A DNA stretch of 64,000 bases from an uncultured Erysipelotrichaceae bacterium. Lineage in GTDB: Bacteria; Bacillota_I; Bacilli_A; RFN20; CAG-826. Position numbers and translations under genes: made by a program. The notes below the pieces were generated by a model. It searched no databases, was not told the DNA's origin, and saw only the letters and a list, made by a program, of their open reading frames with translations. The stretch covers positions 31,759 to 95,758 of the forward strand of contig CADCLU010000006.1 in the NCBI GenBank assembly GCA_902802355.1, read 5' to 3'. Numbering within the stretch: position 1 is the first letter of the stretch; every line of letters begins with the position of its first letter. Shown piece after piece: positions 4,879 through 49,270 of the stretch.

Positions 4879-4945
4879 TTCCCTCTTTCTCTTTCCGTTG
4901 GATGTGATAAACTTAGTAGCCTTAATTTCAGGAGGCTTGATCTTT

Positions 4946-5362
4946 ATGGAAAAAACACTATCTCGCAACAAAGCCCATGACATCGCACTTTTCGCGATTT
5001 ATGACGTTCTGACTTACTCTGCGGCGAAGCTTCCAGCTCCGATTGAGGATATCGTCAGCGGCTTAACTGAAAAATCTTTTGCGGATAGTGACTTTTTTGT
5101 TAAAGAGATGGTTTTGGCCATGGTCAAACACTATCAAGAGATCATCCCGATTTTTGAGAAGAACATGAGAAAGTGGACGTTCGATCGTCTTAACCTTCTC
5201 GAGCAAGCTTTGCTTTTGCTTGCATATTGCCAGTCTTATTACAGCGTCGAGAAAACAGATAAAGCCATCATCATCAACGTCTCTGTTGAGTTGGCTAAGA
5301 AATATCTGAGCGATAACGACTATAAATTCGTTAATGCGATTCTGGATAAGGTCTTGGCCTAA
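4946..5362 (+). CDS. nusB: Transcription antitermination factor NusB
   Basis: NusB-like sequence with an RxxAL-type helix pattern. I placed the start at the ATG at 4946, downstream of SD AGGAGG. It overlaps the xseA start (TAATG). Confidence 0.8.
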   Translation: MEKTLSRNKAHDIALFAIYDVLTYSAAKLPAPIEDIVSGLTEKSFADSDFFVKEMVLAMVKHYQEIIPIFEKNMRKWTFDRLNLLEQALLLLAYCQSYYSVEKTDKAIIINVSVELAKKYLSDNDYKFVNAILDKVLA

Positions 5363-6561
5363 TGGAACGAAATCAATATTTCAGCGTAACAGCGCTTAAC
5401 ACCCTCATAAAATCGAAGATCGATGGAGATGAGGAATTACATAACGTTTACGTTAAAGGGGAGATTAGTAACTGGAAAGGTTACAGCTCCGGTTATTTCT
5501 TCGACCTCATCGATGAGAAGAAAAGCGTCATATCATGCGTCGTTTGGAGAGACAACTACCTGTATCTCCCGTTTGAACCGAAGGACGGCGATGAGGTGAT
5601 AGCCCTAGGCTCGGTTAGCGTTTATGTCGGCAGAGGCCGCTATAACTTCGCAGTCAAAACACTCGAGAAATTCGGACAAGGCGCAGCATTGCTCGCTTTA
5701 GAAGCCTTGAAAAAGAAACTCCAGGCTGAAGGCTTGTTTGATGTTTCGCATAAACAAACTATCCCTGAATTCCCAAGAAGCATTGGTCTCATAGTAGGGG
5801 ACCAGAGTGCGGCAGAGGCCGATCTCATCAAAAACATCTCCAGACGTTGGCCATTATGCGATATTCTCGTTTTTCCATCGCTCGTCCAAGGCAAGGATGC
5901 CCCAAAAGAGCTCTTAAAGGCCCTCAGGAGAGCGGAAACGACCGAAATCGATATTTTAATCATCGCACGTGGCGGCGGCTCAAATGAGGACCTTAGCGCG
6001 TTTAATGACGAAACGCTTGCTAGAGAACTCTATACTTGTAAGATTCCGTGTATCTCAGCGGTCGGCCATGAAATTGACACAACATTAATCGATTATGTCT
6101 CGGATTTGAGAGTCAGTACGCCAACAGGCGCAGCGGAAGCCGCAACACCGGATCAGGCTGAGATTAGAGCGGCATTACTAGGTGCAGAGGATGCCTTAGA
6201 TACCGCCATCAAAAACATCTTTTCTAAGAAAAGGGATCTCCTTAATAATTTAAGTGCCAGGCCGTTCTTCAAGAATCCTTCATCAAATTACGAGAAAGCC
6301 AAGGAAGAAGTTCAACAACTATCCAAGCGTTTGAGTATTTCTCTTAGCCACATTCTTGAAAAGAATAAGAGCCAGGTTGAGTCCCTATCATCGAAGCTCA
6401 ACGCGCTTAATCCGCGTAATGTAATCAACAGAGGCTATTCGATGACGACCGATGAAAAGGGGAATGTCATCACATCAATAAACCAAATAGCAGAAGGCGA
6501 CACGCTAAAAAGCGTATTGAAAGATGGCGTGATAACGTCTAAAGTCACGTCTAAGGAGTAA
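5362..6561 (+). CDS. xseA: Exodeoxyribonuclease VII large subunit
   Basis: 399 aa with an OB-fold N-terminus and the catalytic region ARGGGSNEDL. It is followed by xseB. Confidence 0.92.
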   Translation: MERNQYFSVTALNTLIKSKIDGDEELHNVYVKGEISNWKGYSSGYFFDLIDEKKSVISCVVWRDNYLYLPFEPKDGDEVIALGSVSVYVGRGRYNFAVKTLEKFGQGAALLALEALKKKLQAEGLFDVSHKQTIPEFPRSIGLIVGDQSAAEADLIKNISRRWPLCDILVFPSLVQGKDAPKELLKALRRAETTEIDILIIARGGGSNEDLSAFNDETLARELYTCKIPCISAVGHEIDTTLIDYVSDLRVSTPTGAAEAATPDQAEIRAALLGAEDALDTAIKNIFSKKRDLLNNLSARPFFKNPSSNYEKAKEEVQQLSKRLSISLSHILEKNKSQVESLSSKLNALNPRNVINRGYSMTTDEKGNVITSINQIAEGDTLKSVLKDGVITSKVTSKE

Positions 6562-6563
6562 TC

Positions 6564-6761
6564 ATGGAAAAGAAAACCGAAAAGACTTTCGAAGAAAAAC
6601 TCACTCGTCTTAACGAGATCGTTGAGAAAGTGGAGAATACGACGCTTTCCCTAGAGGACGCCATGAAGCTTTATGAAGAGGGTAATGCCCTTATCAAAGA
6701 TCTTCAGAAGTCTTTGAATGAAGCAGAGACCAAAATCCAAGTTATCAAAGATAAACAATAA
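6564..6761 (+). CDS. xseB: Exodeoxyribonuclease VII small subunit
   Basis: 65-aa coiled-coil protein (FEEKLTRLNEIVEKVEN...LSLEDAMKLYEEG) directly after xseA. Confidence 0.9.
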   Translation: MEKKTEKTFEEKLTRLNEIVEKVENTTLSLEDAMKLYEEGNALIKDLQKSLNEAETKIQVIKDKQ

Positions 6762-6801
6762 CGAAATAGGATAATATTAGTAGTTTTTAAGTTATTTAAA
6801 C

Positions 6802-8661
6802 ATGTCCAAGAAGGTAGAGCACATCGACATAAAATCCATCAAGGATCCAAGCGTGGTTAAAACCCTTAACCGCGAATCTTTGAAGTTGCTCTGCGAGGAT
6901 ATCAGACAGGAAATCATACGTGCAACATCCGAATTTGGCGGACATCTTAGCTCTAATCTAGGCGTTGTCGAACTTACCGTTGCCTTGCATCGTAACTTCG
7001 ATTTCCCAAAAGATAAGCTCATTCTTGATGTCTCGCATCAATCATACACGCATAAGATTCTTACTGGTCGCAGTTTAGAAAACCTCAATTCCAAAGACGG
7101 TGTCTCAGGTTTCATGCGCATGGATGAATCTGAATACGATTGCTATGAGTCAGGTCATTCTTCGACCTCGCTTTCGGCCGCTGAAGGTTTTGCCATTGCG
7201 AGAGACATTAAGAAAGAGGACTTTTACATTGTTCCTGTAATCGGCGATGGTTCCTTGGTCAACGGTTTGTCATTTGAAGCCTTGAACCATATTGCAGGGC
7301 GCTTTGGAAAGATGATCATCGTCATCAACGACAATGACATGTCCATTTCTCGTCCTGTCGGCGGCTTAGGAAAATTCTTCCGCCGTATTTCAACCGCCAG
7401 AGGTTACAACTCTTTCAAAGAAAGATATAAGAACACTTTGGAGAAAAATGCCGTTGGACGCTGGTTCTATAGATTCAGCTATGCAATTAAGAACGGCATC
7501 AAACGTATCTTGGTTCCATTAACCTTATTCGATAATCTCGGATTCACGTACATGGGTCCTTACGATGGACATGACATTAAGATGCTCGATAAGGCCTTTA
7601 AACGTGCTAAAAACGCGACAAAGACTGTCATTATGCATGTTTACACAACCAAAGGAAAAGGATACGAGCCAGCCGAGAAGGATAAAACCGGTTATTGGCA
7701 TGGCGTAACTCCGTTTGATGTTGAAACCGGAGACCCAAAGATCCAGCATCCTGATTTCTGTTCATGGCCTCATTTAGTTGGTGACATCGTCAAAATGGAA
7801 ATGGAAAAGCACGATGATGCCTTATTAATTTGCCCAGGTATGGCAAAAGGAAGCCATCTTGAGGGATCCTTTGAATCATATCCAGATAGATGTGTTGATG
7901 TCGGCATCGCCGAAGAGCACGCTTTGACAATGGCCGGAGCCAGCAATTTAGCTGGAATGCATCCGATTGTATGCGTCTATTCGACATTCCTTCAGAGAGC
8001 TTATGACGAATTGCTCCATGACTGTGCGAGGATGAATGTCGATATGACATTGCTCATTGATCGTGCCGGTCTCGTCGGTAAAGACGGCGAAACCCACATG
8101 GGCATTTACGACGAAGCCTATCTCAAATCCATCCCAGGCACGAAGCTTTATATGCCTTCGACACCTCAAGAAATGCGCGGCGTTATCGATTATTCTATGG
8201 AAAAAGGACATGGTATCGTCGGCATCAGATATCCGCACACCCTTTTCAAATGTAAAGAAAATGACGGAAGCGGAATTCAGGTCAAGCCATGGGTTAATTT
8301 GCAAAATGTAAAGAAACGTAACGAAGTTGTGATTGCTGTCGGGCCTAAAGGAAGAGAGCTTTTATACGCTTTATCAGAGAACGGTTACGATGGACAATTG
8401 ACGATTGCAATCAGACTTTTACCTTTACCTGAAAAAGAAATCGACGAAATTGTAAAGATGGACAAGATCTATATTTATGATTCGTACGGAACGGAAAAAG
8501 GTTTCGCTGAATCCTTAAGCGCAGCCTTGATGAATAAAGGTTTCAAAGGAACGCTTAAAGTGTTTGCCGTTCCGAATACATACGTTCAACATGCTACGAT
8601 CTCCGAACAAGAAAAAGAATTCGGTTTGGATATCGAATCAGTGACTAAACAAATCCTATAA
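6802..8661 (+). CDS. dxs: 1-deoxy-D-xylulose-5-phosphate synthase
   Basis: 619 aa with DXS motifs (GGHLSSNLGVVELT, GDGSLVNGLSFEALN, IAEEHA). Confidence 0.93.
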   Translation: MSKKVEHIDIKSIKDPSVVKTLNRESLKLLCEDIRQEIIRATSEFGGHLSSNLGVVELTVALHRNFDFPKDKLILDVSHQSYTHKILTGRSLENLNSKDGVSGFMRMDESEYDCYESGHSSTSLSAAEGFAIARDIKKEDFYIVPVIGDGSLVNGLSFEALNHIAGRFGKMIIVINDNDMSISRPVGGLGKFFRRISTARGYNSFKERYKNTLEKNAVGRWFYRFSYAIKNGIKRILVPLTLFDNLGFTYMGPYDGHDIKMLDKAFKRAKNATKTVIMHVYTTKGKGYEPAEKDKTGYWHGVTPFDVETGDPKIQHPDFCSWPHLVGDIVKMEMEKHDDALLICPGMAKGSHLEGSFESYPDRCVDVGIAEEHALTMAGASNLAGMHPIVCVYSTFLQRAYDELLHDCARMNVDMTLLIDRAGLVGKDGETHMGIYDEAYLKSIPGTKLYMPSTPQEMRGVIDYSMEKGHGIVGIRYPHTLFKCKENDGSGIQVKPWVNLQNVKKRNEVVIAVGPKGRELLYALSENGYDGQLTIAIRLLPLPEKEIDEIVKMDKIYIYDSYGTEKGFAESLSAALMNKGFKGTLKVFAVPNTYVQHATISEQEKEFGLDIESVTKQIL

Positions 8662-8701
8662 TTTAGTTAACATAACGGACAACATAAAATAAAATATCTA
8701 C

Positions 8702-9886
8702 GTGGCTAAAATAATCATTCACGTTGATTTAAATGCGTTCTTTGCTACGGCTGAGCAGATTCGCCGTCCAGATTATGTTGGGAAACCCGTAATTGTTGGC
8801 GGCCTTGGTCCTCGTGGCGTTGTTTCAACGGCGTCTTATGAGGCTAGAGCTTACGGCGTTCATTCGGCTATGCCTATCGGTGAAGCCAGGATGCTTTGTC
8901 CGAACGGAATATTCCTTCCGGGGGATTATCGCTATTACGAAATGCTCTCTCGTTCTTTCTTCGGCTATTTGAAAAACTATTCATCTTTAGTCGAAGCAGC
9001 CTCGATCGATGAAGGGTTCGTTGATATGACGTCGATGTTAAGCAAAGAGAAGGATCCAATGGCGAAGTTGGTTCAATTGCAGCGTGGCCTTTTAGAACAG
9101 ATAGGTTTGAAATGCTCCATAGGGGTGGGACCAACCAAATTCCTTGCCAAGATGGCGTCCGACATGAAAAAGCCTATGGGAATTACCGTTATCAGAAGAA
9201 AAGACGTCAAAAAGATGCTATATCCTCTCCCGATCGATAGTTTTTTCGGCATCGGAAAGAAGACAGCTGCATATTTGAGGAGCAAAGGAATCAACACGAT
9301 CGGGGATTTTGCGAACGAAATCGCCACTAATGAACCTGAAATGCAGCGATACTTCGGCAAAAGATTCGATTATTACGTCGAAAGCATCAATGGTTATGGT
9401 GATGATGTCGTTAATCCAGATAGACCTGATCCTAAATCTCTCGGCCACAGTCAGACTTTTATGACTGACACGGATGATTTCAGCGAAATCAAAACAGTTA
9501 TTGAGAGTCTTTCCAAAGAAGTCAGCGAAGGCTTGGTAAAAGAAAAGAAGAAATGTAAAAGAATCGTCGTAAATGTAAAGGACTCAAATTTTAAGGTAAG
9601 TTCTAAATCTCTAAACCTTGATGAGCCGGTTTACGATGCAGATGACATTATCAGGCTGGCAAAAAAGCTCTTCGCTGATTATTACTCAGGAAAAGTTATT
9701 CGCCTTGTTGGCGTCACAGCAGGCAATCTCGTGCCTTTTAAAGAAAGGAATGCACAATTGTCTTTGTTTGATGAAGAGGAATATGAGGAAGATGAAACGC
9801 AGGTTCTCATCGATTCCTTGAACAGGAAAGCTAACAAGAAGGTAGTTATGGTTGCTAGTGAGGCATTGAAGAACAATGGAAATTAG
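8702..9886 (+). CDS. dinB: DNA polymerase IV (Y-family)
   Basis: GTG start. Y-family motifs are present: IIHVDLNAFFATAEQ, SIDEGFVDMT and the little-finger region. Confidence 0.9.
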   Translation: MAKIIIHVDLNAFFATAEQIRRPDYVGKPVIVGGLGPRGVVSTASYEARAYGVHSAMPIGEARMLCPNGIFLPGDYRYYEMLSRSFFGYLKNYSSLVEAASIDEGFVDMTSMLSKEKDPMAKLVQLQRGLLEQIGLKCSIGVGPTKFLAKMASDMKKPMGITVIRRKDVKKMLYPLPIDSFFGIGKKTAAYLRSKGINTIGDFANEIATNEPEMQRYFGKRFDYYVESINGYGDDVVNPDRPDPKSLGHSQTFMTDTDDFSEIKTVIESLSKEVSEGLVKEKKKCKRIVVNVKDSNFKVSSKSLNLDEPVYDADDIIRLAKKLFADYYSGKVIRLVGVTAGNLVPFKERNAQLSLFDEEEYEEDETQVLIDSLNRKANKKVVMVASEALKNNGN

Positions 9887-10757
9887 GGATGCTGTCTCGT
9901 TGTTTTTGCAACATTTACAGGTAGAAAAAGGCGTTTCAAAAGCGACGATCGAGAATTACAAAGAAGACCTGAAGTTGTTTTTTGATTATTTCAAAGACAC
10001 TAACAATACCGACGATTTGATGATTCAACAGATTGCTGAGTTTATCCAAATACAAAGCGAAGATAATAAGGCTGCATCGACGATTTTGAGGCGTTACAGC
10101 TGTTTGAAAAATTTCTTTACATTTTTGGTTGGAGAAGGTGTGATCGACACCGATATCCCTGAGTTTGAGAAGCCTAAGAAAGATAAGAAACTCCCTTTGG
10201 TAGTCTCTAATGAGGATGTTGAGGCCCTGTTAGAGGCCCCAGACATGACCAAAGAAAGCGGTCAAAGGGATAGAGCGATGCTGGAAGTAATGTATGCAAC
10301 CGGGCTTCGTGTTAGCGAATTGATCAGTCTTCAGTTTAAGAACGTAGATTTTCCAAGCCAAGTCATTACCGTTTACGGTAAAGGGAACAAGCAAAGAAGC
10401 GTCCCGGTTTCATCGTTTGCATTGGATTATCTATCTAAATACATCAACGGCGTCAGAAAAAGGAATCCAGGCCATGCATCGAATTATTTATTCCTTAATA
10501 AACAAGGACATCCGGTCTCTAGAGTGTATTTCTTTAAACAAGTTAAGAATTATGCGGCCATGGCCGGAATAGATGACGCGATATCTCCGCACACTTTGAG
10601 ACATTGCTTTGCAACGCATTTATTAGAGAACGGCGCAGAGTTGAGAGCTGTGCAGGAAATGTTAGGACACAGTAAGATCTCGACAACGCAAGTCTATACG
10701 CAAGTTTCGACCAAGAGGATTATATCTGCCTATGACAGGTATAGCTCAAGGAAATAA
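9876..10757 (+). CDS. Tyrosine recombinase, XerC/XerD family
   Basis: 293 aa with an N-terminal SAM-like domain and the catalytic residues in context (ATGLRVSE, HTLRHCFATHLLENG, LGHSKISTTQVYT). Confidence 0.88.
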   Translation: MEIRDAVSLFLQHLQVEKGVSKATIENYKEDLKLFFDYFKDTNNTDDLMIQQIAEFIQIQSEDNKAASTILRRYSCLKNFFTFLVGEGVIDTDIPEFEKPKKDKKLPLVVSNEDVEALLEAPDMTKESGQRDRAMLEVMYATGLRVSELISLQFKNVDFPSQVITVYGKGNKQRSVPVSSFALDYLSKYINGVRKRNPGHASNYLFLNKQGHPVSRVYFFKQVKNYAAMAGIDDAISPHTLRHCFATHLLENGAELRAVQEMLGHSKISTTQVYTQVSTKRIISAYDRYSSRK

Positions 10758-10818
10758 TATGAACGCTAATTCATATTAAATAATTAATAAATACCTATTA
10801 ATAGAGAAGGGCAAAAGC

Positions 10819-10844
10819 AGGATTCAATAACTTGGATCCTTTTT
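10819..10844 (+). terminator. Rho-independent terminator after the Xer gene
   Basis: Stem AGGATTC / GGATCCT (7 bp including one G-U) with an 8-nt loop and a T-run. Confidence 0.65.
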
Positions 10845-11203
10845 GTATAGCTTAGTTGTTGTTATAGAGCCATCTATCGGTGTGGCAAAAGCGTTTTAGA
10901 TCTAAATAAGGTATCAGAAAACCCGTTAAAACAAGGTAAAAAAAGTAAGCGCTTACAAAAGATTACAATTTTAGTCAGCCAAAAAATCAATTAAGGAATT
11001 GCGTATTTTAATTCGGTATTTTGTGTGGGTTTTGAAGGCAGTAAAAACGCTCATTTGATTAGTAGTTTAGATTAAATTCTAAAAGTAATTAACTAGTAGT
11101 TTTGACTGATGTGTTAAAAACTCATTATTTAGGTGGATTAAATGGTTAATAGATTAATTATGTAATTTATAAAAACAAGCAAATACGCTTTTCCTATATA
11201 TTT

Positions 11204-11231
11204 AGTTAACATAAAGGCTATTATGCGAAGA
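11204..11231 (-). other. dif: dif-like Xer recombination site (TCTTCGCATAA-TAGCCT-TTATGTTAACT on the minus strand)
   Basis: The site has the 11-6-11 architecture. Its arms match E. coli dif (GGTGCGCATAA TGTATA TTATGTTAAAT) at 8/11 and 10/11 positions. The right arm matches the B. subtilis dif right arm TTATGTAAACT at 10/11. It lies in a noncoding AT-rich gap at the plus-to-minus gene orientation switch, 450 bp from the Xer gene. Confidence 0.7.
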
Positions 11232-11420
11232 TATAGTATTTTCGATGGTGGGACCCAAAGTAAGCATATCCTTACTGCAACAATTGTAAACGCTTTTTGT
11301 GCAAAAATTGTTAAATTACAATTTCCTTCCACCGCTTAATTTCATATAAAAATAGGCCTTCAAAAATCTAGAAATGCTTATAGTCAACAAAAACGCTATT
11401 TGTCCTTAAATGGAGCACTA

Positions 11421-11448
11421 AAAAAGCCACCGCTGGTCTTGCGATGGC
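11421..11448 (-). terminator. Rho-independent terminator after rsfS
   Basis: On the minus strand, the 8-bp stem GCCAUCGC / GCGGUGGC is followed by UUUUU. Confidence 0.75.
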
Positions 11449-11465
11449 CTTTAAGAAACCGATTT

Positions 11466-11795
11466 TTATCTCTTCTCTATTTTGAAGAGGTCTTCCAGGT
11501 TCATTTCTTGTCGTTTGGCGGCCGTGAATATATGAACGACGACTTCGCCGGCGTCCACTAACACCCAGCCTGACTCTGGCTGACCTTCAATTTGCCTTAA
11601 ATCATCTACTTTGTTCTGAAAGAACTCTTCCAATGAATCGGCATATGCCCCTGCTGCGCGCATGTTCGGGGCTGTAACTAGGATGTAATAGTCTGTGAAT
11701 GGCGTTCTATCCCTGACATCTACGATTGTGATGTCTTCTCCCTTTTTGTCTTCGAGTAATTCTTTGGTTTCTTTGATTAGTTTAGGATAAGCCAT
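11466..11795 (-). CDS. rsfS: Ribosomal silencing factor RsfS
   Basis: 109-aa RsfS/YqeL-like protein (KGEDITIVDV...TDYYILVTA). It is the last gene of the yqeG-to-rsfS operon. Confidence 0.88.
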   Translation of the reverse strand: MAYPKLIKETKELLEDKKGEDITIVDVRDRTPFTDYYILVTAPNMRAAGAYADSLEEFFQNKVDDLRQIEGQPESGWVLVDAGEVVVHIFTAAKRQEMNLEDLFKIEKR

Positions 11796-12928
11796 TAATT
11801 CATTCCTTCCTTTTTATCTAAAAAATATGAGTAGCTTTCTTCAGTTAATGGACAACTGTTGTTATGAGGCGTGTCCTTTGTTTTCTCTGCTAAATAGATC
11901 CTATTGGCGGCTAAGACATCCAAGAATCCCTGGTGATAGTCCTTTATGCAGCTCGCAATTAGGTCAGATGAGTCGTAACCTCTGCCAGGCTCAATTTTAT
12001 CCGCGCTATAGATTGTTTGCTCAAGAGGACCCATTTCTGCTCTTCCTGTGCAATGGTATGCAATTGAGTCGAGGATGTCTTTGTCCTTAATCCCGAATTC
12101 TCTTTCGGCCAAATAAGCTCCGACCCATTGGTGAAGAGCCCAATAAGGATACTCCGAATATTCTTCTGAATATTCCTTGGCCACAATATCTTTCGATTTA
12201 TCGTCTGGGATGTATTTGCCGATGTCATGAAGGATCGCAGCTTGATAGGTTTTTAACGGATCGAGGGCGTCTTGATTGTTTCTGGCGATATCCAAAGCAA
12301 CGTTCGCGACTCTGATGGAATGGTTAAGCCTCGTTTGCTTTAGATATTTGGACATTCCTTTTATAAAATAAAGACCATTAGCTTCAACGTAATGCCTGAT
12401 GTAATCCGGATAGTCGATCGATTTCATTTCGCGGATGTCCGTGCTCGATACTTCGTGTTCTTTGAAAGGCATTGGCTTCATATTGAAGCGCTTGATGATT
12501 TCTTCGTTCAATGGATAACCATGTCTTGGGACATAGTAGATTTGAGCGTTTGACGCGATGATATCTGGGTCTTTCCACTTGTTGAAGAGGTTTACTTGGT
12601 CCGCTCCGATGATGAAATAGAGCGTGTTGTATTCCTTTTTGAAATGAAGAATCGTGTCTACGCTGTAGGATGGCCCATCACCCGGAATGGTTATTTCATA
12701 ATCCGAGACAGAGAAACGCTTCTCCTTCTTGTTTAGCTCATCGCAAGCGATGTTAAGCATGGCAAGTCTATCTTTAGGGCTAGCGTCGTTATCTTTCCAT
12801 CTCGCGTTTTTGGCAGGAACGAACAAAAGAGGACAGCCAAGGTAATCAGATGCTGCCTTCGCTATTTCAACGTGTCCGTTATGGAGCGGATCGAAACTGC
12901 CGCCGTAAATGATAATCTTGCCGTTCAT
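11795..12928 (-). CDS. nadD: Fusion: nicotinate-nucleotide adenylyltransferase NadD + HD-domain YqeK (Ap4A hydrolase family)
   Basis: The N-terminus has GGSFDPLHNGHVEIA, the (H/T)xGH nucleotidyltransferase motif. The C-terminal half has the HD motif (RLNHSIRVA...ILHDIGK). The two form a single 377-aa ORF. Confidence 0.85.
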   Translation of the reverse strand: MNGKIIIYGGSFDPLHNGHVEIAKAASDYLGCPLLFVPAKNARWKDNDASPKDRLAMLNIACDELNKKEKRFSVSDYEITIPGDGPSYSVDTILHFKKEYNTLYFIIGADQVNLFNKWKDPDIIASNAQIYYVPRHGYPLNEEIIKRFNMKPMPFKEHEVSSTDIREMKSIDYPDYIRHYVEANGLYFIKGMSKYLKQTRLNHSIRVANVALDIARNNQDALDPLKTYQAAILHDIGKYIPDDKSKDIVAKEYSEEYSEYPYWALHQWVGAYLAEREFGIKDKDILDSIAYHCTGRAEMGPLEQTIYSADKIEPGRGYDSSDLIASCIKDYHQGFLDVLAANRIYLAEKTKDTPHNNSCPLTEESYSYFLDKKEGMN

Positions 12929-14406: not shown

Positions 14407-14928
14407 CTACCTCCCAATTAAATTATAATTCTCAGAGAGAATCTTTTTGCTTTTCTTTTTTTCGAAAACGCGATTGAATCTAGTCCAAATGATATCTCCC
14501 TCGCTGATTGGCTCGGTGAGAATGGTCATGATTCCTGCTTTGTTCCCAGCCTTCACATCGGTAAGAACCTGATCTCCGATAAGAACGACTTCTTCTTTTT
14601 TGAACCCTTGTCTTTCGATTAGTTTCTTAAGGGGTCCGCTAAAAGGTTTCATCAATCCTGAAAAAACCGTGATACCTAGTTCTTTGCCGTAAAGTGAAAC
14701 ACGTTTTGAAGTGTTGTTGGAAGCAATATAGAAGTCGATTCCGGCCTCTTTGAGGTTTTTGACGAGTTCTTGGGTTCTTAGACTCGGGGTTTTGACCCTA
14801 TAGTCATCAAGAGTGTTGTCGAGATCGGAGAGAACCACCTTGATTCCGTGTTCAGCATAGAAAGACACTGGTATCTCGAAGATTGAGTTAGCGCGATATG
14901 TTGGGAACCAAATGGGTTTCTTTTTCAT
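14407..14928 (-). CDS. yqeG: HAD-family phosphatase YqeG
   Basis: 173 aa with DLDNTL and GDQVLTD HAD motifs. It is the first gene of the yqe operon. Confidence 0.85.
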   Translation of the reverse strand: MKKKPIWFPTYRANSIFEIPVSFYAEHGIKVVLSDLDNTLDDYRVKTPSLRTQELVKNLKEAGIDFYIASNNTSKRVSLYGKELGITVFSGLMKPFSGPLKKLIERQGFKKEEVVLIGDQVLTDVKAGNKAGIMTILTEPISEGDIIWTRFNRVFEKKKSKKILSENYNLIGR

Positions 14929-17564
14929 TATTCTTTCTTATCGTCCTCAAAATTTAGAATGTCGTCGAAGAGAGACATCTCTTCATAAACGACCGGGGCC
15001 TCCTCGGTCTTAGGCTCGGTCAGAATCTCTGGCTCTTCTTCAATTGGAGGGAGCTCAGGTTCGAATGATTGGATCGAATCGTCGAGGAGATAGGAATTCG
15101 AGTTGTCCCTAGAGACATAGTCGATGCGGTATTTGGCCGAGAACGAGTCTGGGCGCTTTGCGTACCTATCGGTTGGAGTCAAATAGAAGTCTGGGAAGGT
15201 GATGTCATAACGAGTTCCGTCGTTAAGCACCGCTTCTACGGTGTATGGAGGGACTTGACCGTTCGTCCTTGAGATATAGACGACGCGGTGCGGTTCCTTT
15301 TTGAACATATTGAAGAATGGGTTGGCCTTATGGAGCCTCTTTCCAAGGTTGATGTGATTGGTATCAAAGACTCTCGTTGACCCGCGGTCGGTGATAACGA
15401 GGATCTTGTTCTCTTTTTCGTCTTGGTTGAAAGCAAGAACGCCTGCTAAAGGCTTGCCACCGAAGGAACCGGCTTTCATGCCACGGCTTCTTGGGTTGCT
15501 GATGAAGATCTCATTTTCGTTATAGAAAGCAGCGCGGCCGTCTTCGCTTGTAATAAAGAGGTTGCTGTTACCGGTCGTGTAGGTGACACCGACGAGATAA
15601 TCGCCCTTCTCAAGCCTGATGGCTGGGATTGGCTTGCTGCGTCTGATAACTGGGAAGGAATCAAGACGGATTCTCTTAACGGAACCGTTCCTTGATAAGA
15701 GGATGACGAAGAGGTCATGCCTGAAATGACGGACCGCAAAGGCCGAGATAAGGTGATCGTTTGGAGCGAGGTTGACGAGGTTGTTAACGTGATATCCTTC
15801 GTCGTTCCATTTAGCTTCTTTGACCTCGTTCACTGGAATGTAGAGGTAATTACCCTGCTCTGTGAAAATGAGGATGAAATCGGTTGTCTCGCATTCGCCA
15901 TCAAAGATGAAGGAGTCGCCGGTCTTGATACCTGCTCTAGCACCGTTCTGTCCGCCAGATCCTTTCCAGGACTTGATGGATGAACGCTTGATGTATCCGT
16001 GTCTTGTAATAACGAGTTTGACTGTCTCTTTGGCGATGAGGTCGCGTTTATTGAGTGCGGTCGTGGTCTCTTCTTCTCTAATCTCAGTTAAACGTTCGCC
16101 GGAGTACTTCTTGGCGACTGCTTTAAGATTGTCGATGATGACGTCTTCGCGTTTGCTCTGATCGCTTAACAAGCCATTGAGGTAAGCGATGTCCTCATTG
16201 AGTTTAAGGTTCTCGTCCTCAAGGACTTTGATATCCGTGTGAGAAAGCTTATAAAGCGGCATCATGACAATAGCTTCGGCCTGAGGCTCTGTAAATCCGA
16301 ATTCCTTTTGGATATTGGCCTTGGAATCCGCTTTATCGTGGCTGGCTTTAATGACTTCCACGACTTGGTCAAGAATGCTGATGGCTTTGATAAGCCCTTC
16401 AACAATTTGGAGACGCAAAGTGTACTTATTTAAGAGGAAGTGACTCTTTCTGGTGATGACATCGAGCTGATGCTGGATGTAGCAATCACAATAGGAAAGA
16501 AGATCGAGTGTCTTTGGTTTGTCATCAACAATGGCCACTACTTGAGCGCTGAAAGAGGTCTTGAGCTGAGTCTTGTTCATAAGGTAAGCCAAGACAGCAT
16601 CAGGCTTGCAATCGTTCTTAAGGTCAACGCAGATACGGAGACCTTCTTTGTCGCTTTCGTCGCGGACTTCTAATATGCCTGGGATGGTTTTATCGTGGCA
16701 AATCTTATCGATGGACTTAACGAGCATCGATTTATTAACGTGGAACGGAATCTCAGAGATGATGATCTGGCTGGCGCCTTTTCCGTCAGTGACGATTTCG
16801 GCTTTGCCGCTGACGATAACTTTTCCACGGCCTTTCCTATAGATGTCCTCTAACCCGGTGGATTTGAAAATGATACCGCCAGTTGGGAAATCTGGGCCTG
16901 GAACGTATTTCAGGAGATCATCGACAAGACAATCTGGGTGTTTGATTCTGTGAACGATCGCTGATGTGATTTCGCGAAGGTTATGAGGCGGGATTGAGGT
17001 TGAGATACCGACAGCAATACCTTCAGAGCCGTTGGCGAGAAGGTTTGGGAATTGCGCTGGAAGGACTGTTGGTTCGAATAAGGTATCGTCGAACGTGAGT
17101 TCCATATCCACCGTATCTTTGTCGATATCGGCAATCAATTCGTTGGAAATGGCGCTTAATCTGGCTTCGGTATAACGATAGGCAGCTGCACTGTCTCCGT
17201 CCATGGAACCGTTGTTTCCTTGGAAATCGATCAAAGGATAGCGGACATTCCAGTCTTGGGACATATGAACCAAGGCATCGTATACGGAGGAGTCGCCATG
17301 TGGGTGATATTTACCTAAAACGTCACCAACGATACGAGCGCACTTCTTGGTTGGCTTATCGATTGTGTTTCCGGTGTTCCACATATCATAAACAATCCTG
17401 CGCTGAACCGGCTTCAAGCCGTCTCTAGCATCAGGGATTGCACGATCCTGGATTACGTCTTTGGCGTAAATAGCGAATTTATCGCCCATCAATTGGTCAA
17501 GAGGACCAAAAATGATGTTTTCCTGGATTATAGGTTGTTCAGTCTTCTTCTTGGCCATGATCAA
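14928..17564 (-). CDS. parC: DNA topoisomerase IV subunit A
   Basis: Type IIA subunit A with [10 protein letters not shown] (catalytic Tyr). It has KPVQRR, the ParC-type Q where GyrA has H. The GyrA-box position is degenerate. It lies next to dif and has an acidic C-terminal tail. Confidence 0.8.
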
Positions 17565-19492
17565 TTCTTCACTTCTTTAATAAATTCGTCTTTCTCGTTG
17601 AATGTGACATTCTCTTGGATCCAAGCCCAACGAGGAGCGCTGTCCTTGCCCATGAGCGTCTCAACGCGTTTCTCAGTGACGAGAGAATCATCAATCATCA
17701 CTCGGCAAAGCATACGGGTCTCTTTGTTCATTGTGGTAACGGCGAGTTCGTCTTCGTTCATTTCACCAAGACCTTTGTAACGATTGATGCCATAGCCGGC
17801 GCCAATCTTCTGTTTGGCTTTCTCGAGTTCTTCGTCGTTCCAGCAGAATATGTGTTTCTTTGTATCGCTCTTCTTATAAACGCGATAAAGAGGCGGCTGC
17901 GCGATATAAACCATGCCACGATCGATAAGAGGCTTCATGTAGTTATAGAAGAACGTAAGCAAAAGAATCTGGATGTGTGCACCATCGGTATCGGCATCGG
18001 TCATGATGATGATCTTGCCATAATGGCTGGCATCCGGATTGAACTCGTCGCCAAAACCAGCACCAATAGTCTGGATTAAGGTCGAGAACTCAAGGTTATC
18101 GATGATTTCCTGATTGGAAACGTTATGCGTGTTCAAAGGTTTGCCACGGAGTGGAAGGATGGCCTGATGACTTCTGTCGCGGCCTTTCTTGGCGGTTCCG
18201 CCTGCGGAATCACCCTCAACGATGAATAGTTCGTTGTTCTTATAGTCTTTGCTCTGAGCGCTGGCGAGTTTGTCGCTGATGATCATCTCGGCGACTTTCT
18301 TCTTGGTTCCCCTAGCGGCTTCACGGGCTTTGCGAGCTGCCTCGCGGGCTTCCTTGGCTTGGTTGCACTTCTTAATAAGCGCCACCGCAAAATCTTTATT
18401 CTCGGTGAGGAAGTAAGGCATAAAATTCGATAAAGCGTTGCTGACAACAGCTGTTGCTTCTGGCGTGCCTAACTTGCCTTTGGTTTGGCCTTCGTATTCG
18501 AGTTTGTTCTCTGGGACTTTAACGGAGATGATCGCAGTTAAGCCTTCACGGATATCACTGCCATCGATTGACTGGTTGCCTCTGATAAGTTCATTATCTC
18601 TGGCCCAATCGTTAAGAATTTTGGTTAAAGCGCCTTTGAAACCGATTTCGTGAGTACCACCATCGGCAGTCTTAACGTTGTTAGCGTAGCTGATGATATT
18701 CTCACCATAGTCGCCGACACACCATCTCATGGCGATCTCGACTTGGATTGGATTCGAAGTATCGACCAAATCAATAACGTCCGCCATAGGGGTTTTATCG
18801 ATAGTTAAGGTTTGGACGTATTCGCGTAAACCATGCTCTGTGCAGTAGTCATGGGTATTTCCGCTAGCTTGATCTTTGATGATGAAATGAACGCCATTCA
18901 AAAGATAACTCTTTTCCTCTAGCCTAGAGGCGATCGTCTCATAGTTGAATTTGGTATTAGGGAAAATGGATGGATCCGGTTTGAAATGAACGGTTGTTCC
19001 ATGCTTGTTCGTAGAACCGATCACATGGAGAGGCGTGATTAAATGTCCGCCGTTCGCAAAAGCGATGTGATTGATCTCGCCATCACGGTAGACAGTAACC
19101 TCAAGGAATTCGCATAACGCGTTCGTAACGGTAGCGCCTACGCCATGAAGACCGGCGCTGGTCTTATAGTTCTTGCTGTTGAACTTGCCACCACTGTGGA
19201 GGGTCGTATAAAGAAGCTGAACGGCTGGGAGGCCGGATTCCTTATGAATATCACATGGAACGCCACGACCTTCGTCTTCGACGGTTAAAGATCCGTCTCT
19301 CATAAGGGTGACGGTAATCTTCTTGCCAAAGCCGTTGACTGCTTCGTCAACTGCGTTATCTATGATTTCCCAAGCGATATGGTGTAGTCCGTTTAAGTTG
19401 GTGGAACCGATGTACATGCCAGGACGTTTTCTGACACCCTCAAGTTCCGATAATAGTTCAATGTCGTTAGCTGTGTATTTCTCGTCGGCCAT
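17561..19492 (-). CDS. parE: DNA topoisomerase IV subunit B
   Basis: GHKL ATPase plus Toprim domains ([22 protein letters not shown]). It is coupled to parC by an ATGA overlap. The ParE versus GyrB call rests on the partner gene and location. Confidence 0.75.
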
Positions 19493-19610: not shown

Positions 19611-20339
19611 GTGAACATTTTATTGAACATCGGCATTGCCCTTGCCTGCATAATTTGGGGTTTCCTAATCGGTAGCATTCCTACTGGCGTTATTGTCGGT
19701 AAAGTCTTTTTCGGAGTCGATCCACGCGACTATGGTTCACACAACTCCGGCGGAACTAACTCTGGCCGTGTTTTAGGCAAGAAAGTTGGCATCCTCGTCA
19801 TGGTCCTTGATATCGCCAAGACCGTTATTGCGTTCTGGACCATGTGGCTATTCCTTCACTTCGGTCCAATAAATCTTGGAGAGCTTTGGGACTACGGCGT
19901 TTTCTATAACTATCTAGTTTTCGCTGCCGCGGCCTTTGGCCACTGCTTCTCGCCATTCCTCAAATTCAAAGGTGGCAAAGCCGTTGCCTGTTTCATGGCT
20001 ATCTTCGGAGGATCAAGCTGGCTTGGTTTCATCATCAGCTTGGCTGTCTTCTTCATTATCTTCCTTGTTGTCTTCAAGAAGGTTATGTCGAAGGCGTCTC
20101 TTCTTTCAGGAGCCGTTCTTATCCTTATCAGCGGAATCTTCTGCTTGCTTAGGTTGATCCCAGGAGCCGATTCGGTCCTCAATATCTTCCTTTGGGACTT
20201 CGGCCTCGTTGGCGGCGTCTGCTTCGGATGGCAGATGATTGTTGTCGAGGTCGTTGTGTATACACTTCTTGTTATCCGTCACGCTTCCAATATCCAGCGC
20301 ATTAGGAAAGGCGAAGAAAAGCCTCTCGAATGGAAGTAG
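19611..20339 (+). CDS. plsY: Glycerol-3-phosphate acyltransferase PlsY
   Basis: GTG start. It is a polytopic membrane protein with GSIPTG...GSHNSGGTN. Confidence 0.88.
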   Translation: MNILLNIGIALACIIWGFLIGSIPTGVIVGKVFFGVDPRDYGSHNSGGTNSGRVLGKKVGILVMVLDIAKTVIAFWTMWLFLHFGPINLGELWDYGVFYNYLVFAAAAFGHCFSPFLKFKGGKAVACFMAIFGGSSWLGFIISLAVFFIIFLVVFKKVMSKASLLSGAVLILISGIFCLLRLIPGADSVLNIFLWDFGLVGGVCFGWQMIVVEVVVYTLLVIRHASNIQRIRKGEEKPLEWK

Positions 20340-20371
20340 TTAATTAGTAGATATTTAGTTTTATATCAAAT

Positions 20372-26301: not shown

Positions 26302-26454
26302 AGAACCTGGATATATCAAGGGTTTATTACAAAATACCATTAGTTTGATAATAGTTTAAAATTAGTACTTTGGAACATTTTTCATTAGCGATAATAACTA
26401 ATCTGTTTAGTTAAATGTAATGAAAGTCTAATAAATGATGAAATGTGCTATTTT

Positions 26455-49209: not shown

Positions 49210-49270
49210 CACGATAACTAAAAAACTACTAAAAATTTTAGCGATTAACTGAAATTATAAAGACGCTGGG

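What the first reader, a model, noticed from the sequence alone, without database searches (positions are those of the whole stretch)
9876..11466. Probable replication terminus: consensus-like dif site beside the Xer gene at a strand-orientation switch
The minus strand at 11204-11231 reads TCTTCGCATAA-TAGCCT-TTATGTTAACT.
- Both 11-bp arms fit the bacterial dif pattern. They match E. coli dif GGTGCGCATAA-TGTATA-TTATGTTAAAT at 8/11 and 10/11 positions, and the B. subtilis right arm TTATGTAAACT at 10/11.
- The 6-bp core (TAGCCT) is not the usual TRTAYA type.
- The site sits in the only large noncoding stretch of the window, about 560 bp and very AT-rich.
- It is 450 bp downstream of a XerC/D recombinase gene and 4 kb from the parEC decatenase genes.
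- All 10 genes to the left are on the plus strand. About 44 of the roughly 50 genes to the right are on the minus strand. This is the convergence expected where two replichores meet.
- The track ORF 11138-11332 that covers the site is almost certainly spurious.
Basis: partly seen in the sequence, partly recalled or inferred. Interest (0 to 1): 0.6.

Follow-up and report, generated by a model that had tools for sequence, protein, structure and literature searches.

The report
Dif site at the replication terminus
This is the ordinary 28-letter site (dif) where two Xer enzymes unlink sister chromosomes at the end of replication, here in an uncultured rumen bacterium; its one unusual feature is that it lies right beside one of its enzyme genes.

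Summary
The 28-mer TCTTCGCATAA-TAGCCT-TTATGTTAACT is present on the minus strand at 11204-11231. It is a genuine XerC/XerD dif site.

- **Uniqueness:** it is the only strong dif match in the 1.09-Mb assembly (26.6 bits; next best 16.1).
- **Conservation:** it is the most conserved island in a fast-diverging spacer. A matching site occurs about once per genome in 100 of 101 genomes of the order (RFN20, class Bacilli).
- **Machinery:** the genome encodes XerD (adjacent), XerC and FtsK.
- **Terminus, this genome:** the spacer is the strongest convergent gene-strand switch. Cumulative A-T and purine excess peak within 0.2 kb of dif. A coding-independent polar word (GGGGAAG/GGGGAGA) flips there.
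- **Terminus, relatives with the same gene order:** dif lies about 180 degrees from dnaA at a classical GC-skew switch (G038), and 158-174 degrees from dnaA (G009).
- **GC skew:** raw skew is inverted here, giving a minimum, because codon position 3 is C-rich.

New details:
- xerD-dif linkage (0.2-6 kb) is conserved order-wide in a two-recombinase system.
- A XerD half-site sits on the dinB-xerD promoter.
- An unexplained direct-repeat motif clusters around dif.

The scan has reported Xer-linked dif sites in other lineages, but not in this one.

The parts
11204..11231 (-). dif, the 28-bp XerC/XerD recombination site. XerC arm TCTTCGCATAA (11231-11221), central region TAGCCT (11220-11215), XerD arm TTATGTTAACT (11214-11204).
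   Evidence: Sequence. Unique high score in the genome. Most conserved island of the spacer. About one perfect match to the order-wide pattern per listed genome.
9876..10757 (+). xerD (293 aa), a tyrosine recombinase with the catalytic residues present.
   Evidence: TIGR02225 XerD 325.5 bits (cut-off 329.6); XerC model 290.3; NF001399 310.3, above its cut-off. Best solved structure is E. coli XerD 1a0p, E 3.7e-52.
8702..9886 (+). dinB (DNA polymerase IV). It overlaps the xerD start, so the two genes are probably one operon.
   Evidence: The dinB-xerD pair is conserved across the order.
8665..8675 (-). Second exact copy of the XerD arm TTATGTTAACT, in the dxs-dinB spacer. It overlaps the -35 box of the dinB-xerD promoter-like site (TTAACA-17-TAAAAT, 8667-8695, plus strand).
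   Evidence: These are the only two exact copies in the assembly, both in the same orientation. TTAACATAA is kept at this position in 9 of 15 genus sequences. Promoter scan; sequence.
10758..11465 (.). 708-bp spacer between convergent genes, 30.5% GC. It is the terminus junction.
   Evidence: Top convergent change point in the genome. Cumulative A-T maximum at 11429 and purine-excess maximum at 11264. No Rfam family matched.
10819..10840 (+). Terminator-like hairpin followed by a T run, downstream of xerD.
11081..11101 (-). Direct-repeat motif AACTACTAGTTAATTACTTTT, at a fixed distance (+132) from dif on the XerD-arm side.
11132..11140 (-). Decayed DnaA-box-like word TAATCCACC. Relatives carry TTATCCACA with at most 1 mismatch at this position.
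   Evidence: 12 of 17 genus sequences.
11466..11795 (-). rsfS, the last gene of the yqeG-yqeH-yhbY-nadD/yqeK-rsfS operon that converges on dif.
14928..19492 (-). parC and parE (topoisomerase IV), 3.7 kb from dif.
6776..6796 (-). Another copy of the direct-repeat motif, in the 40-nt xseB-dxs spacer.
20332..20363 (-). Two overlapping copies of the direct-repeat motif, at the plsY 3' end in the spacer convergent with the 184-aa ORF.
11138..11332 (-). Spurious 64-codon ORF that runs across dif.
   Evidence: Not conserved in relatives whose xerD is 74-99% identical.

Best explanation
The 28-mer is the chromosomal dif site of an uncultured rumen bacterium. By the tool's genus grouping it belongs to GTDB genus UBA4951, family CAG-826, order RFN20, class Bacilli.

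**Inferred mechanism.** When sister chromosomes have been joined into a dimer, XerC binds the left arm (TCTTCGCATAA) and XerD binds the right arm (TTATGTTAACT) of each copy. XerC is encoded on another contig next to trmFO; XerD is encoded 446 bp away. FtsK at the septum translocates toward dif, guided by polar G-rich words, and activates XerD. Strand exchange across the 6-bp central region TAGCCT then gives monomers.

**What is shown.**
- The site and its uniqueness.
- Its conservation.
- The presence of XerC, XerD and FtsK.
- The site's position at the point where gene orientation, A-T skew and polar words all switch.

**What is inferred.**
- Binding and catalysis, taken from the established XerCD/dif mechanism.
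- That this point is opposite the origin. This rests on syntenic relatives, because dnaA was not found in this assembly.
For: **Site**
- Sequence. It scores 26.6 bits against 16.1 for the next best site in 1.09 Mb. Chance expectation in the window is 0.03.

**Conservation**
- It is the best-conserved island in an otherwise diverging spacer across relatives with 74-99% identical xerD.
- CGYATAAT-N5-TTATGTW (up to 1 mismatch allowed) is found in 100 of 101 genomes of the order. Nearly every listed genome has exactly one perfect copy.
- The order [aspS tkt asp23 nusB xseA (xseB) dxs dinB xerD>] dif [<rsfS nadD yhbY yqeH yqeG parC parE] is kept in the genus. Its core is kept in other families.

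**Machinery**
- There are exactly two tyrosine recombinases.
- This one is XerD-like. The other is XerC-like and lies next to trmFO.
- FtsK has a C-terminal winged-helix tail.

**Terminus, this genome**
- Top convergent switch of 348 boundaries.
- Cumulative A-T maximum at 11429 and purine maximum at 11264.
- GGGGAAG/GGGGAGA count 6:1 on the left and 1:7 on the right of dif, Fisher p = 0.010.
- Genome-wide these words stay on the presumed leading strand in head-on genes (23:7), whereas codon-driven words reverse.

**Terminus, G009 (same genus)**
- A 400-kb contig has about three quarters of its genes on the plus strand left of dif and about four fifths on the minus strand right of it.
- The cumulative polar-word maximum is 4.2 kb from dif.
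- Cumulative A-T maximum at 243,041, just past the end of dif.
- dif is 483-532 kb from dnaA in a 1,102-kb genome.

**Terminus, G038 (same order, same local gene order)**
- dif is 700.9 kb from dnaA in a genome of about 1.4 Mb.
- GC skew and gene strand flip between 123 and 154.5 kb (dif at 146.6 kb) and again between 844 and 849 kb (dnaA at 847.5 kb).
Against: - dnaA was not found in this assembly, and dnaN lies at the end of a 3.4-kb contig. The origin-to-dif angle therefore cannot be measured in this genome.
- Raw cumulative G-C has a minimum 6.6 kb to the left of the site, which is the sign usually read as an origin. This is explained by the codon-position-3 skew of -0.39. It also means that the base-composition skews here largely mirror gene strand and are not independent evidence.
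- Gene orientation switches back at C6:111.6 kb, and other contigs have smaller switches.
- Polar-word counts on this contig are small (15 words).
- The central region TAGCCT is not of the usual TRTAYA type.
- No binding or recombination data exist.
- About 3% of the genome is unassembled and could hold another site.
Confidence: 0.88

Rival explanations
1. The site is a genuine Xer site, but it works as a self-contained single-recombinase module with the adjacent gene product alone, as XerS/difSL and XerH/difH do.
For: The recombinase gene lies 446 bp from the site. This linkage (0.2-6.3 kb) is conserved across the order. Such linkage is a hallmark of single-recombinase modules (PMC5357621, PMC2731167).
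Against: - The genome and nearly all complete relatives encode a second, XerC-like paralogue with intact catalytic motifs.
- The two arms differ in the way XerC and XerD arms do.
- The site is a classical 28-mer with a 6-bp centre, not a difSL or difH type.
- The adjacent protein scores as XerD, far above XerS.
Confidence: 0.05
2. The site is a functional dif, but this locus is not the replication terminus in this genome. The strand switch would be a local rearrangement.
For: The origin region is not assembled. Gene orientation switches again 68 kb to the right. The skews are confounded by gene strand.
Against: - The gene order around dif is the same as in relatives whose dif is opposite dnaA.
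- The coding-independent polar words flip here.
- A dif site placed away from the terminus is known to work poorly (established knowledge; PMC3025954 removes candidates near the origin for that reason).
Confidence: 0.05
3. The AT-rich spacer is an origin-like or DnaA-controlled region, and the 28-mer is incidental.
For: Cumulative G-C has a minimum nearby. DnaA-box-like words lie 90-115 bp from the 28-mer in 12 of 17 genus sequences.
Against: - Genes converge on the spacer instead of diverging.
- In this window the box has 2 mismatches, and no box with at most 1 mismatch lies in the spacer.
- Relatives have a classical oriC elsewhere, with DnaA-box clusters around dnaA and divergent genes.
- The sign of the G-C skew is explained by codon usage.
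- The polar words point toward the site, not away from it.
Confidence: 0.01
4. The 28-mer resembles dif by chance.
For: It is short and AT-rich, and it lies in an AT-rich spacer.
Against: - There is a 10.5-bit gap to the next best site in the genome.
- Shuffles give 0.03 matches.
- It is conserved at the same syntenic position across an order while its flanks diverge.
Confidence: 0.01

Closest known systems
XerC/XerD-dif of Firmicutes (CodV/RipX-dif of Bacillus subtilis) and of E. coli
   Same: - A 28-bp site with two 11-bp arms of partial dyad symmetry and a 6-bp centre.
- One copy per chromosome, at the terminus.
- Two paralogous tyrosine recombinases plus an FtsK/SpoIIIE translocase.
- The XerD arm and the inner arm positions are the best conserved, as described for proteobacteria (PMC2731167).
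   Different: - The central region is TAGCCT here. Within the genus it is mostly TGTCCA or TGTCCG, and in another family of the order it is the classical TGTATA.
- The left arm (TTCGCATAA) looks more like the proteobacterial type than the B. subtilis one.
- xerD lies 0.2-6 kb from dif throughout the order. In a survey of 641 genomes, xerD genes were mostly near the origin and xerC genes near dif (PMC3025954).
Single-recombinase modules XerS/difSL (streptococci, lactococci) and XerH/difH (Helicobacter, Campylobacter)
   Same: The recombinase gene and its site are genetically linked at the terminus.
   Different: Those systems use one recombinase and atypical sites (a 31-bp difSL with an 11-bp centre; difH). 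This system has two recombinases and a classical dif.
XDS, the XerD-specific binding sites of the B. subtilis terminus region (Karaboja et al. 2021, cited in PMC11894783)
   Same: The second exact XerD arm at 8665-8675 has no XerC arm beside it and lies 2.5 kb from dif. This is like a XerD-only site near the terminus.
   Different: Only one such half-site was found. It overlaps the -35 box of the dinB-xerD promoter, so it may be an operator or just a promoter element. No binding data exist. The paper itself was not held, so the comparison is from memory.
FtsK/SpoIIIE orienting polar sequences: KOPS GGGNAGGG (E. coli), SRS GAGAAGGG (B. subtilis), GAAGAAG (Lactococcus lactis)
   Same: GGGGAAG/GGGGAGA are G-rich words. 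They are strongly biased to the leading strand whatever the gene orientation, and their polarity flips at dif.
   Different: The word is different. The E. coli and B. subtilis words show no such polarity here. Recognition by this FtsK is untested.

Membership tests
Classical XerCD/dif chromosome dimer resolution site | 28 bp: two 11-bp arms with partial dyad symmetry around a 6-bp central region, with inner arm positions CATAA / TTATG | tested here: met
   The arms match remembered dif sites at 7-9/11 (left) and 10/11 (right).
Classical XerCD/dif chromosome dimer resolution site | Single copy per chromosome | tested here: met
   One site at 26.6 bits against 16.1 for the next best, in a 96.6%-complete assembly. 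About one perfect pattern match per listed genome of the order; 100 of 101 genomes have a match with up to 1 mismatch.
Classical XerCD/dif chromosome dimer resolution site | Located at the replication terminus, opposite oriC, where strand asymmetries switch | tested here: met
   Gene-strand change point, A-T and purine extrema, and polar words. Syntenic relatives have dif 158-187 degrees from dnaA. The angle could not be measured in this genome because dnaA was not found in the assembly.
Classical XerCD/dif chromosome dimer resolution site | Genome encodes both XerC and XerD with catalytic R-K-H-R-H-Y residues | tested here: met
   Two tyrosine recombinases. One is XerD-like and one is XerC-like next to trmFO. 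The motifs are visible in both translations.
Classical XerCD/dif chromosome dimer resolution site | FtsK/SpoIIIE translocase with a gamma domain | tested here: met
   PF01580 hit on C6:104373-104942. The C-terminal tail looks like a winged helix (by eye). The N-terminal part lies in a separate frame, which may be an assembly frameshift.
Classical XerCD/dif chromosome dimer resolution site | XerC and XerD bind the arms and recombine two sites | not testable with these tools
   Needs gel shift and recombination assays.
Single-recombinase Xer modules (XerS/difSL, XerH/difH) | Only one Xer recombinase in the genome | tested here: not met
   Two paralogues in this genome and in nearly all complete relatives.
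Single-recombinase Xer modules (XerS/difSL, XerH/difH) | Recombinase gene adjacent to its site | tested here: met
   446 bp here, and 0.2-6.3 kb across the order.
Integrated mobile element exploiting Xer (IMEX) or pdif module | Two dif-like sites bracketing a gene cassette | tested here: not met
   There is no second full site in this genome or in the 20-kb neighbourhoods of relatives. The genes between xerD and dif in relatives are deoB and an ABC-type lipoprotein/permease pair.
Chromosomal origin (oriC) | DnaA-box cluster next to dnaA/dnaN with divergent gene orientation | tested here: not met
   No box with at most 1 mismatch in the spacer. The genes converge. dnaA is elsewhere in relatives.

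The most novel reading that the evidence does not exclude
In genus UBA4951, dif may be the core of a larger terminus-organising locus, not a bare recombination site. Four conserved features point that way:

- xerD is kept beside dif across the order.
- A XerD half-site sits on the xerD operon promoter. It could serve autoregulation or act as an XDS-like site.
- A DnaA-box lies 90-115 bp from dif.
- An 11-bp-period direct repeat (AACTACTAA-N-TAACTACTAAT) lies almost only within about 20 kb of dif. Its three core copies are in non-promoter positions and share one orientation.

This would imply an unknown DNA-binding protein that marks or controls the terminus, acting like matS/MatP, XDS/XerD or Ter/RTP.
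Probability: 0.15. Interest if true: 0.6.

Novelty: new member of a known kind. Interest (0 to 1): 0.3.

Why it matters
- **Anchor for assembly.** The site fixes the replication terminus of an uncultured, small-genome rumen and gut lineage (RFN20) that is known only from metagenome bins. That helps to order contigs and to check assemblies.
- **Warning about GC skew.** In this genus the leading strand is C-rich, because codon position 3 is C-rich in every gene. A standard cumulative-skew tool would call the terminus an origin. dif, the A-T skew and the polar words GGGGAAG/GGGGAGA give the right answer.
- **Departure from the textbook picture.** Order-wide linkage of xerD to dif in a two-recombinase system differs from the usual scattered xer genes. 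It may be a step toward, or a relic of, the linked single-recombinase modules.

Tried and rejected
- **Rfam** on the spacer found nothing meaningful.
- **Pseudogene remnants** of the genes that lie between xerD and dif in relatives: none found. No deoB match was found in the assembly, and the lipoprotein/permease pair is on contig C17.
- **IMEX or cassette reading:** no second full site.
- **Origin reading:** rejected.
- **Known orienting words** GGGNAGGG and GAGAAGGG show no dif-centred polarity.
- **DnaA-trio idea** for the CTACTAA repeats: the repeats are absent from the oriC regions of three relatives and from the DnaA-box cluster on C4.
- **RTP terminator protein:** no homologue at E <= 1.
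- **Fork-trap reading** of the repeat motif: the three core copies on both sides of dif share one orientation, so it is not a simple trap.
- **Karaboja et al. 2021** could not be read.
- **The dif sequences used for the weight matrix** are from memory. A text search for two of them in PMC2731167 found no literal match. The order-wide pattern result does not depend on them.
Full report
**What is there.** The window is G000:C6:31759-95758, from a 1.09-Mb assembly of 30 contigs that is 96.6% complete. The minus strand at 11204-11231 reads TCTTCGCATAA-TAGCCT-TTATGTTAACT. It lies in a 708-bp spacer (10758-11465) with 30.5% GC, the largest non-coding stretch of the window.
- Left of the spacer, on the plus strand: hisS (end only; named by an earlier scan note, not tested here), aspS, tkt, an Asp23-family gene, nusB, xseA, xseB, dxs, dinB and xerD.
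- Right of it, on the minus strand: rsfS, a nadD-yqeK fusion, yhbY, yqeH, yqeG, parC and parE.
parEC is on the right, 3.7 kb away.
- All 9 larger ORFs on the left are on the plus strand, and 42 of 49 on the right are on the minus strand.

**Is it more than chance?** A weight matrix built from the arms of five remembered dif sites scores the 28-mer at 26.6 bits. The training sites themselves score 26.7-29.2, and the next best site in the whole assembly scores 16.1. A relaxed pattern search finds one match in the window, where shuffles give 0.03.

**Conservation.**
- In relatives whose xerD is 74-99% identical, the spacer has diverged with many indels, but the 28-mer is its best-conserved island.
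- The centre drifts within the clade: TAGCCT, TAGCCC, TGTCCT.
- The pattern CGYATAAT-N5-TTATGTW was searched with up to 1 mismatch allowed. It is found in 100 of 101 sampled genomes of the order, and nearly every listed genome has exactly one perfect copy. One-mismatch hits are at the level of the reversed-pattern control.
- Centres range from the classical TGTATA in one family to TGTCCA in most of this genus.
- Variation of the centre between species, with conservation within a species, is the known behaviour of dif (PMC2731167). The atypical TAGCCT therefore does not argue against function.

**Taxonomy.** Record titles name rumen and gut 'Bacilli bacterium' bins. One same-genus genome is UBA4951. 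GTDB places it in o__RFN20; f__CAG-826; g__UBA4951 (PMC9302107).

**Machinery.**
- The genome has exactly two tyrosine recombinases.
- The adjacent one scores 325.5 bits on the XerD model and 290.3 on XerC. Its best solved relative is E. coli XerD.
- The other lies next to trmFO, as codV does in Bacillus, and scores best as XerC.
- FtsK is on the same contig. Its N-terminal part is in another frame, possibly an assembly error. An earlier follow-up already found contig-private lesions in this bin.

**Terminus, this genome.** dnaA is missing from the assembly, and dnaN sits at the end of a 3.4-kb contig. No origin-to-dif angle can therefore be measured.
- Raw GC skew is misleading. Codon position 3 has a G-C skew of -0.39 on the coding strand in genes of either orientation, so the skew simply mirrors gene strand with an inverted sign.
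- The cumulative G-C curve on C6 has a minimum at window 4616. That shape would normally suggest an origin.
- Cumulative A-T peaks at 11429 and purine excess at 11264, within 0.2 kb of dif.
- The spacer is the strongest convergent gene-strand change point among 348 testable boundaries (score 1.60; next 1.30).

**A marker that does not depend on coding strand.** This came from a de novo search in a same-genus 400-kb contig, G009:C2.
- CGGGGAAG occurs 94 times on the leading strand and 10 on the lagging strand. GGGGAGA occurs 92 against 8.
- These words keep their polarity in head-on genes (31:11 and 16:3). Codon-driven words reverse there.
- The cumulative polarity of the words peaks 4.2 kb from dif.
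- In this genome the same words stay on the presumed leading strand in head-on genes (23:7). For this count the leading strand was assigned from each contig's gene-strand majority. Control words reverse.
- On C6 they count 6:1 left of dif and 1:7 right of it (p = 0.010).

**Terminus, relatives.** The order [aspS ... dinB xerD>] dif [<rsfS nadD yhbY yqeH yqeG parC parE] is kept through the genus. Its core (dinB-xerD, dif, rsfS-nadD-...) is kept in other families.
- **G038** has 25% GC and a 1.03-Mb contig. dif is at 146.6 kb and dnaA at 847.5 kb, which is 700.9 kb apart in a genome of about 1.4 Mb. Sampled 20-kb blocks show classical GC skew and gene strand flipping exactly around those two points.
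- **G009** has 3 contigs totalling 1,102,061 bp. dnaA has DnaA-box clusters and divergent genes around it. With the joins that respect gene polarity, dif is 483-532 kb away, or 158-174 degrees.

**How it most likely works.** The standard XerCD/dif mechanism is inferred. XerC binds the left arm and XerD the right arm. FtsK is guided by the polar G-rich words and activates XerD at the septum. Exchange then occurs across TAGCCT. Nothing in the data requires a departure from this.

**What is unusual.**
- **(a) Linkage.** xerD is within 0.2-6.3 kb of dif in every genome where both could be placed. That is about 20 genomes in the genus and 12 of 16 in seven other families. A published survey found xerD mostly near the origin (PMC3025954). 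Linkage is regarded as a trait of single-recombinase modules (PMC5357621, PMC2731167). In other genus members deoB, with or without an ABC lipoprotein/permease pair, lies between xerD and dif. In this clade those genes are gone from here.
- **(b) A XerD half-site.** The only other exact copy of the XerD arm in the assembly is at 8665-8675, in the same orientation. It overlaps the -35 box of the dinB-xerD promoter-like site. TTAACATAA is kept there in 9 of 15 genus sequences. It may be an operator or an XDS-like site, or only a promoter element.
- **(c) Flanking words.** On the XerD-arm side of dif the genus keeps a DnaA-box-like word at +90 to +115 (12 of 17 sequences). It also keeps a direct repeat AACTACTAA-N-TAACTACTAAT at +132.
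- **(d) Motif cluster.** Exact hits to YTACYAR-N4-YTACYW across 31 genus genomes were compared with dif positions. In the 18 genomes whose dif position I know, 39 of 52 hits lie within 20 kb of dif. That count is my tally. Three orthologous positions recur: next to dif, the xseB-dxs spacer, and the plsY 3' end. All three share one orientation and none is a promoter position. No RTP homologue exists. I could not explain this motif.

**Verdict.** This is a new member of a well-known kind, in an uncultured lineage, with a conserved xerD-dif linkage and some unexplained flanking motifs. The scan has reported Xer-linked dif sites in other lineages, some with DnaA boxes beside them. It has none for this lineage.

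Noticed in passing
whole genome G000; window 1-64000: Raw GC skew is inverted relative to replication. Codon position 3 has a G-C skew of -0.39 on the coding strand in genes of either orientation, so the leading strand is C-rich and the terminus appears as a cumulative-skew minimum. The same holds in same-genus G009. A 25%-GC relative in another family (G038) has classical skew.
   Followed up: yes
G009:C2 (L155-L174) and G000 contigs; on C6 at 10665, 19242, 20454, 28703, 30400, 37216 (+) and 54069-103334 (-): GGGGAAG/GGGGAGA (extended form CGGGGAAG) behave like FtsK/SpoIIIE orienting words. They are strongly biased to the leading strand, also inside head-on genes, and their polarity flips at dif.
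   Followed up: yes
window 8665-8695: An exact XerD-arm copy (minus strand) overlaps the -35 box of the dinB-xerD promoter-like site. In genus relatives the -10 box sits exactly 6 nt before the dinB start codon, which suggests a leaderless dinB-xerD transcript.
   Followed up: partly
window 11081-11101, 6776-6796, 20332-20363, 2385-2405, 26350-26370, 49213-49233: An 11-bp-period direct repeat (consensus AACTACTAANTAACTACTAAT) clusters around dif. In 18 genus genomes, 39 of 52 exact pattern hits lie within 20 kb of dif. The three core copies share one orientation and are not in promoter positions. Several neighbouring genes belong to the MEP isoprenoid pathway (dxs, ispG, ispH). The binding protein is unknown.
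   Followed up: partly
window 11132-11140 and the same position in L035-L038, L114-L127: A DnaA-box (TTATCCACA with at most 1 mismatch) lies 90-115 bp from dif on the XerD-arm side in 12 of 17 genus sequences. In this window it has decayed to TAATCCACC. Earlier scan notes report DnaA boxes beside dif in unrelated candidate-phyla bacteria.
   Followed up: partly
G000:C6:103782-106442 (L154), outside the window: ftsK is split between two reading frames: the N-terminal membrane and linker part, and the C-terminal motor with its gamma-like tail. This is probably an assembly frameshift, like other contig-private lesions noted earlier in this bin.
   Followed up: no
G000:C27:2886-3299 and G000:C4:2356-2445: dnaA is missing from the assembly, and dnaN lies at the end of a 3.4-kb contig. 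Two perfect DnaA boxes and one near-perfect box lie upstream of pfkA on C4, close to the contig end.
   Followed up: partly
window 4900-11800: The genes nearest dif (nusB to xerD, and rsfS) have lower GC than the rest (0.40-0.43 against 0.47-0.51) and a weaker codon-3 C bias (xerD +0.11, dinB -0.04, against about -0.35 elsewhere).
   Followed up: no
window 11795-12928: One 377-aa ORF matches both NadD (residues 4-187) and YqeK (194-350).
   Followed up: partly
G000:C17:2993-4625: The lipoprotein/permease pair that lies between xerD and dif in other genus members is on a separate 12.7-kb contig here. No deoB match was found anywhere in the assembly.
   Followed up: partly
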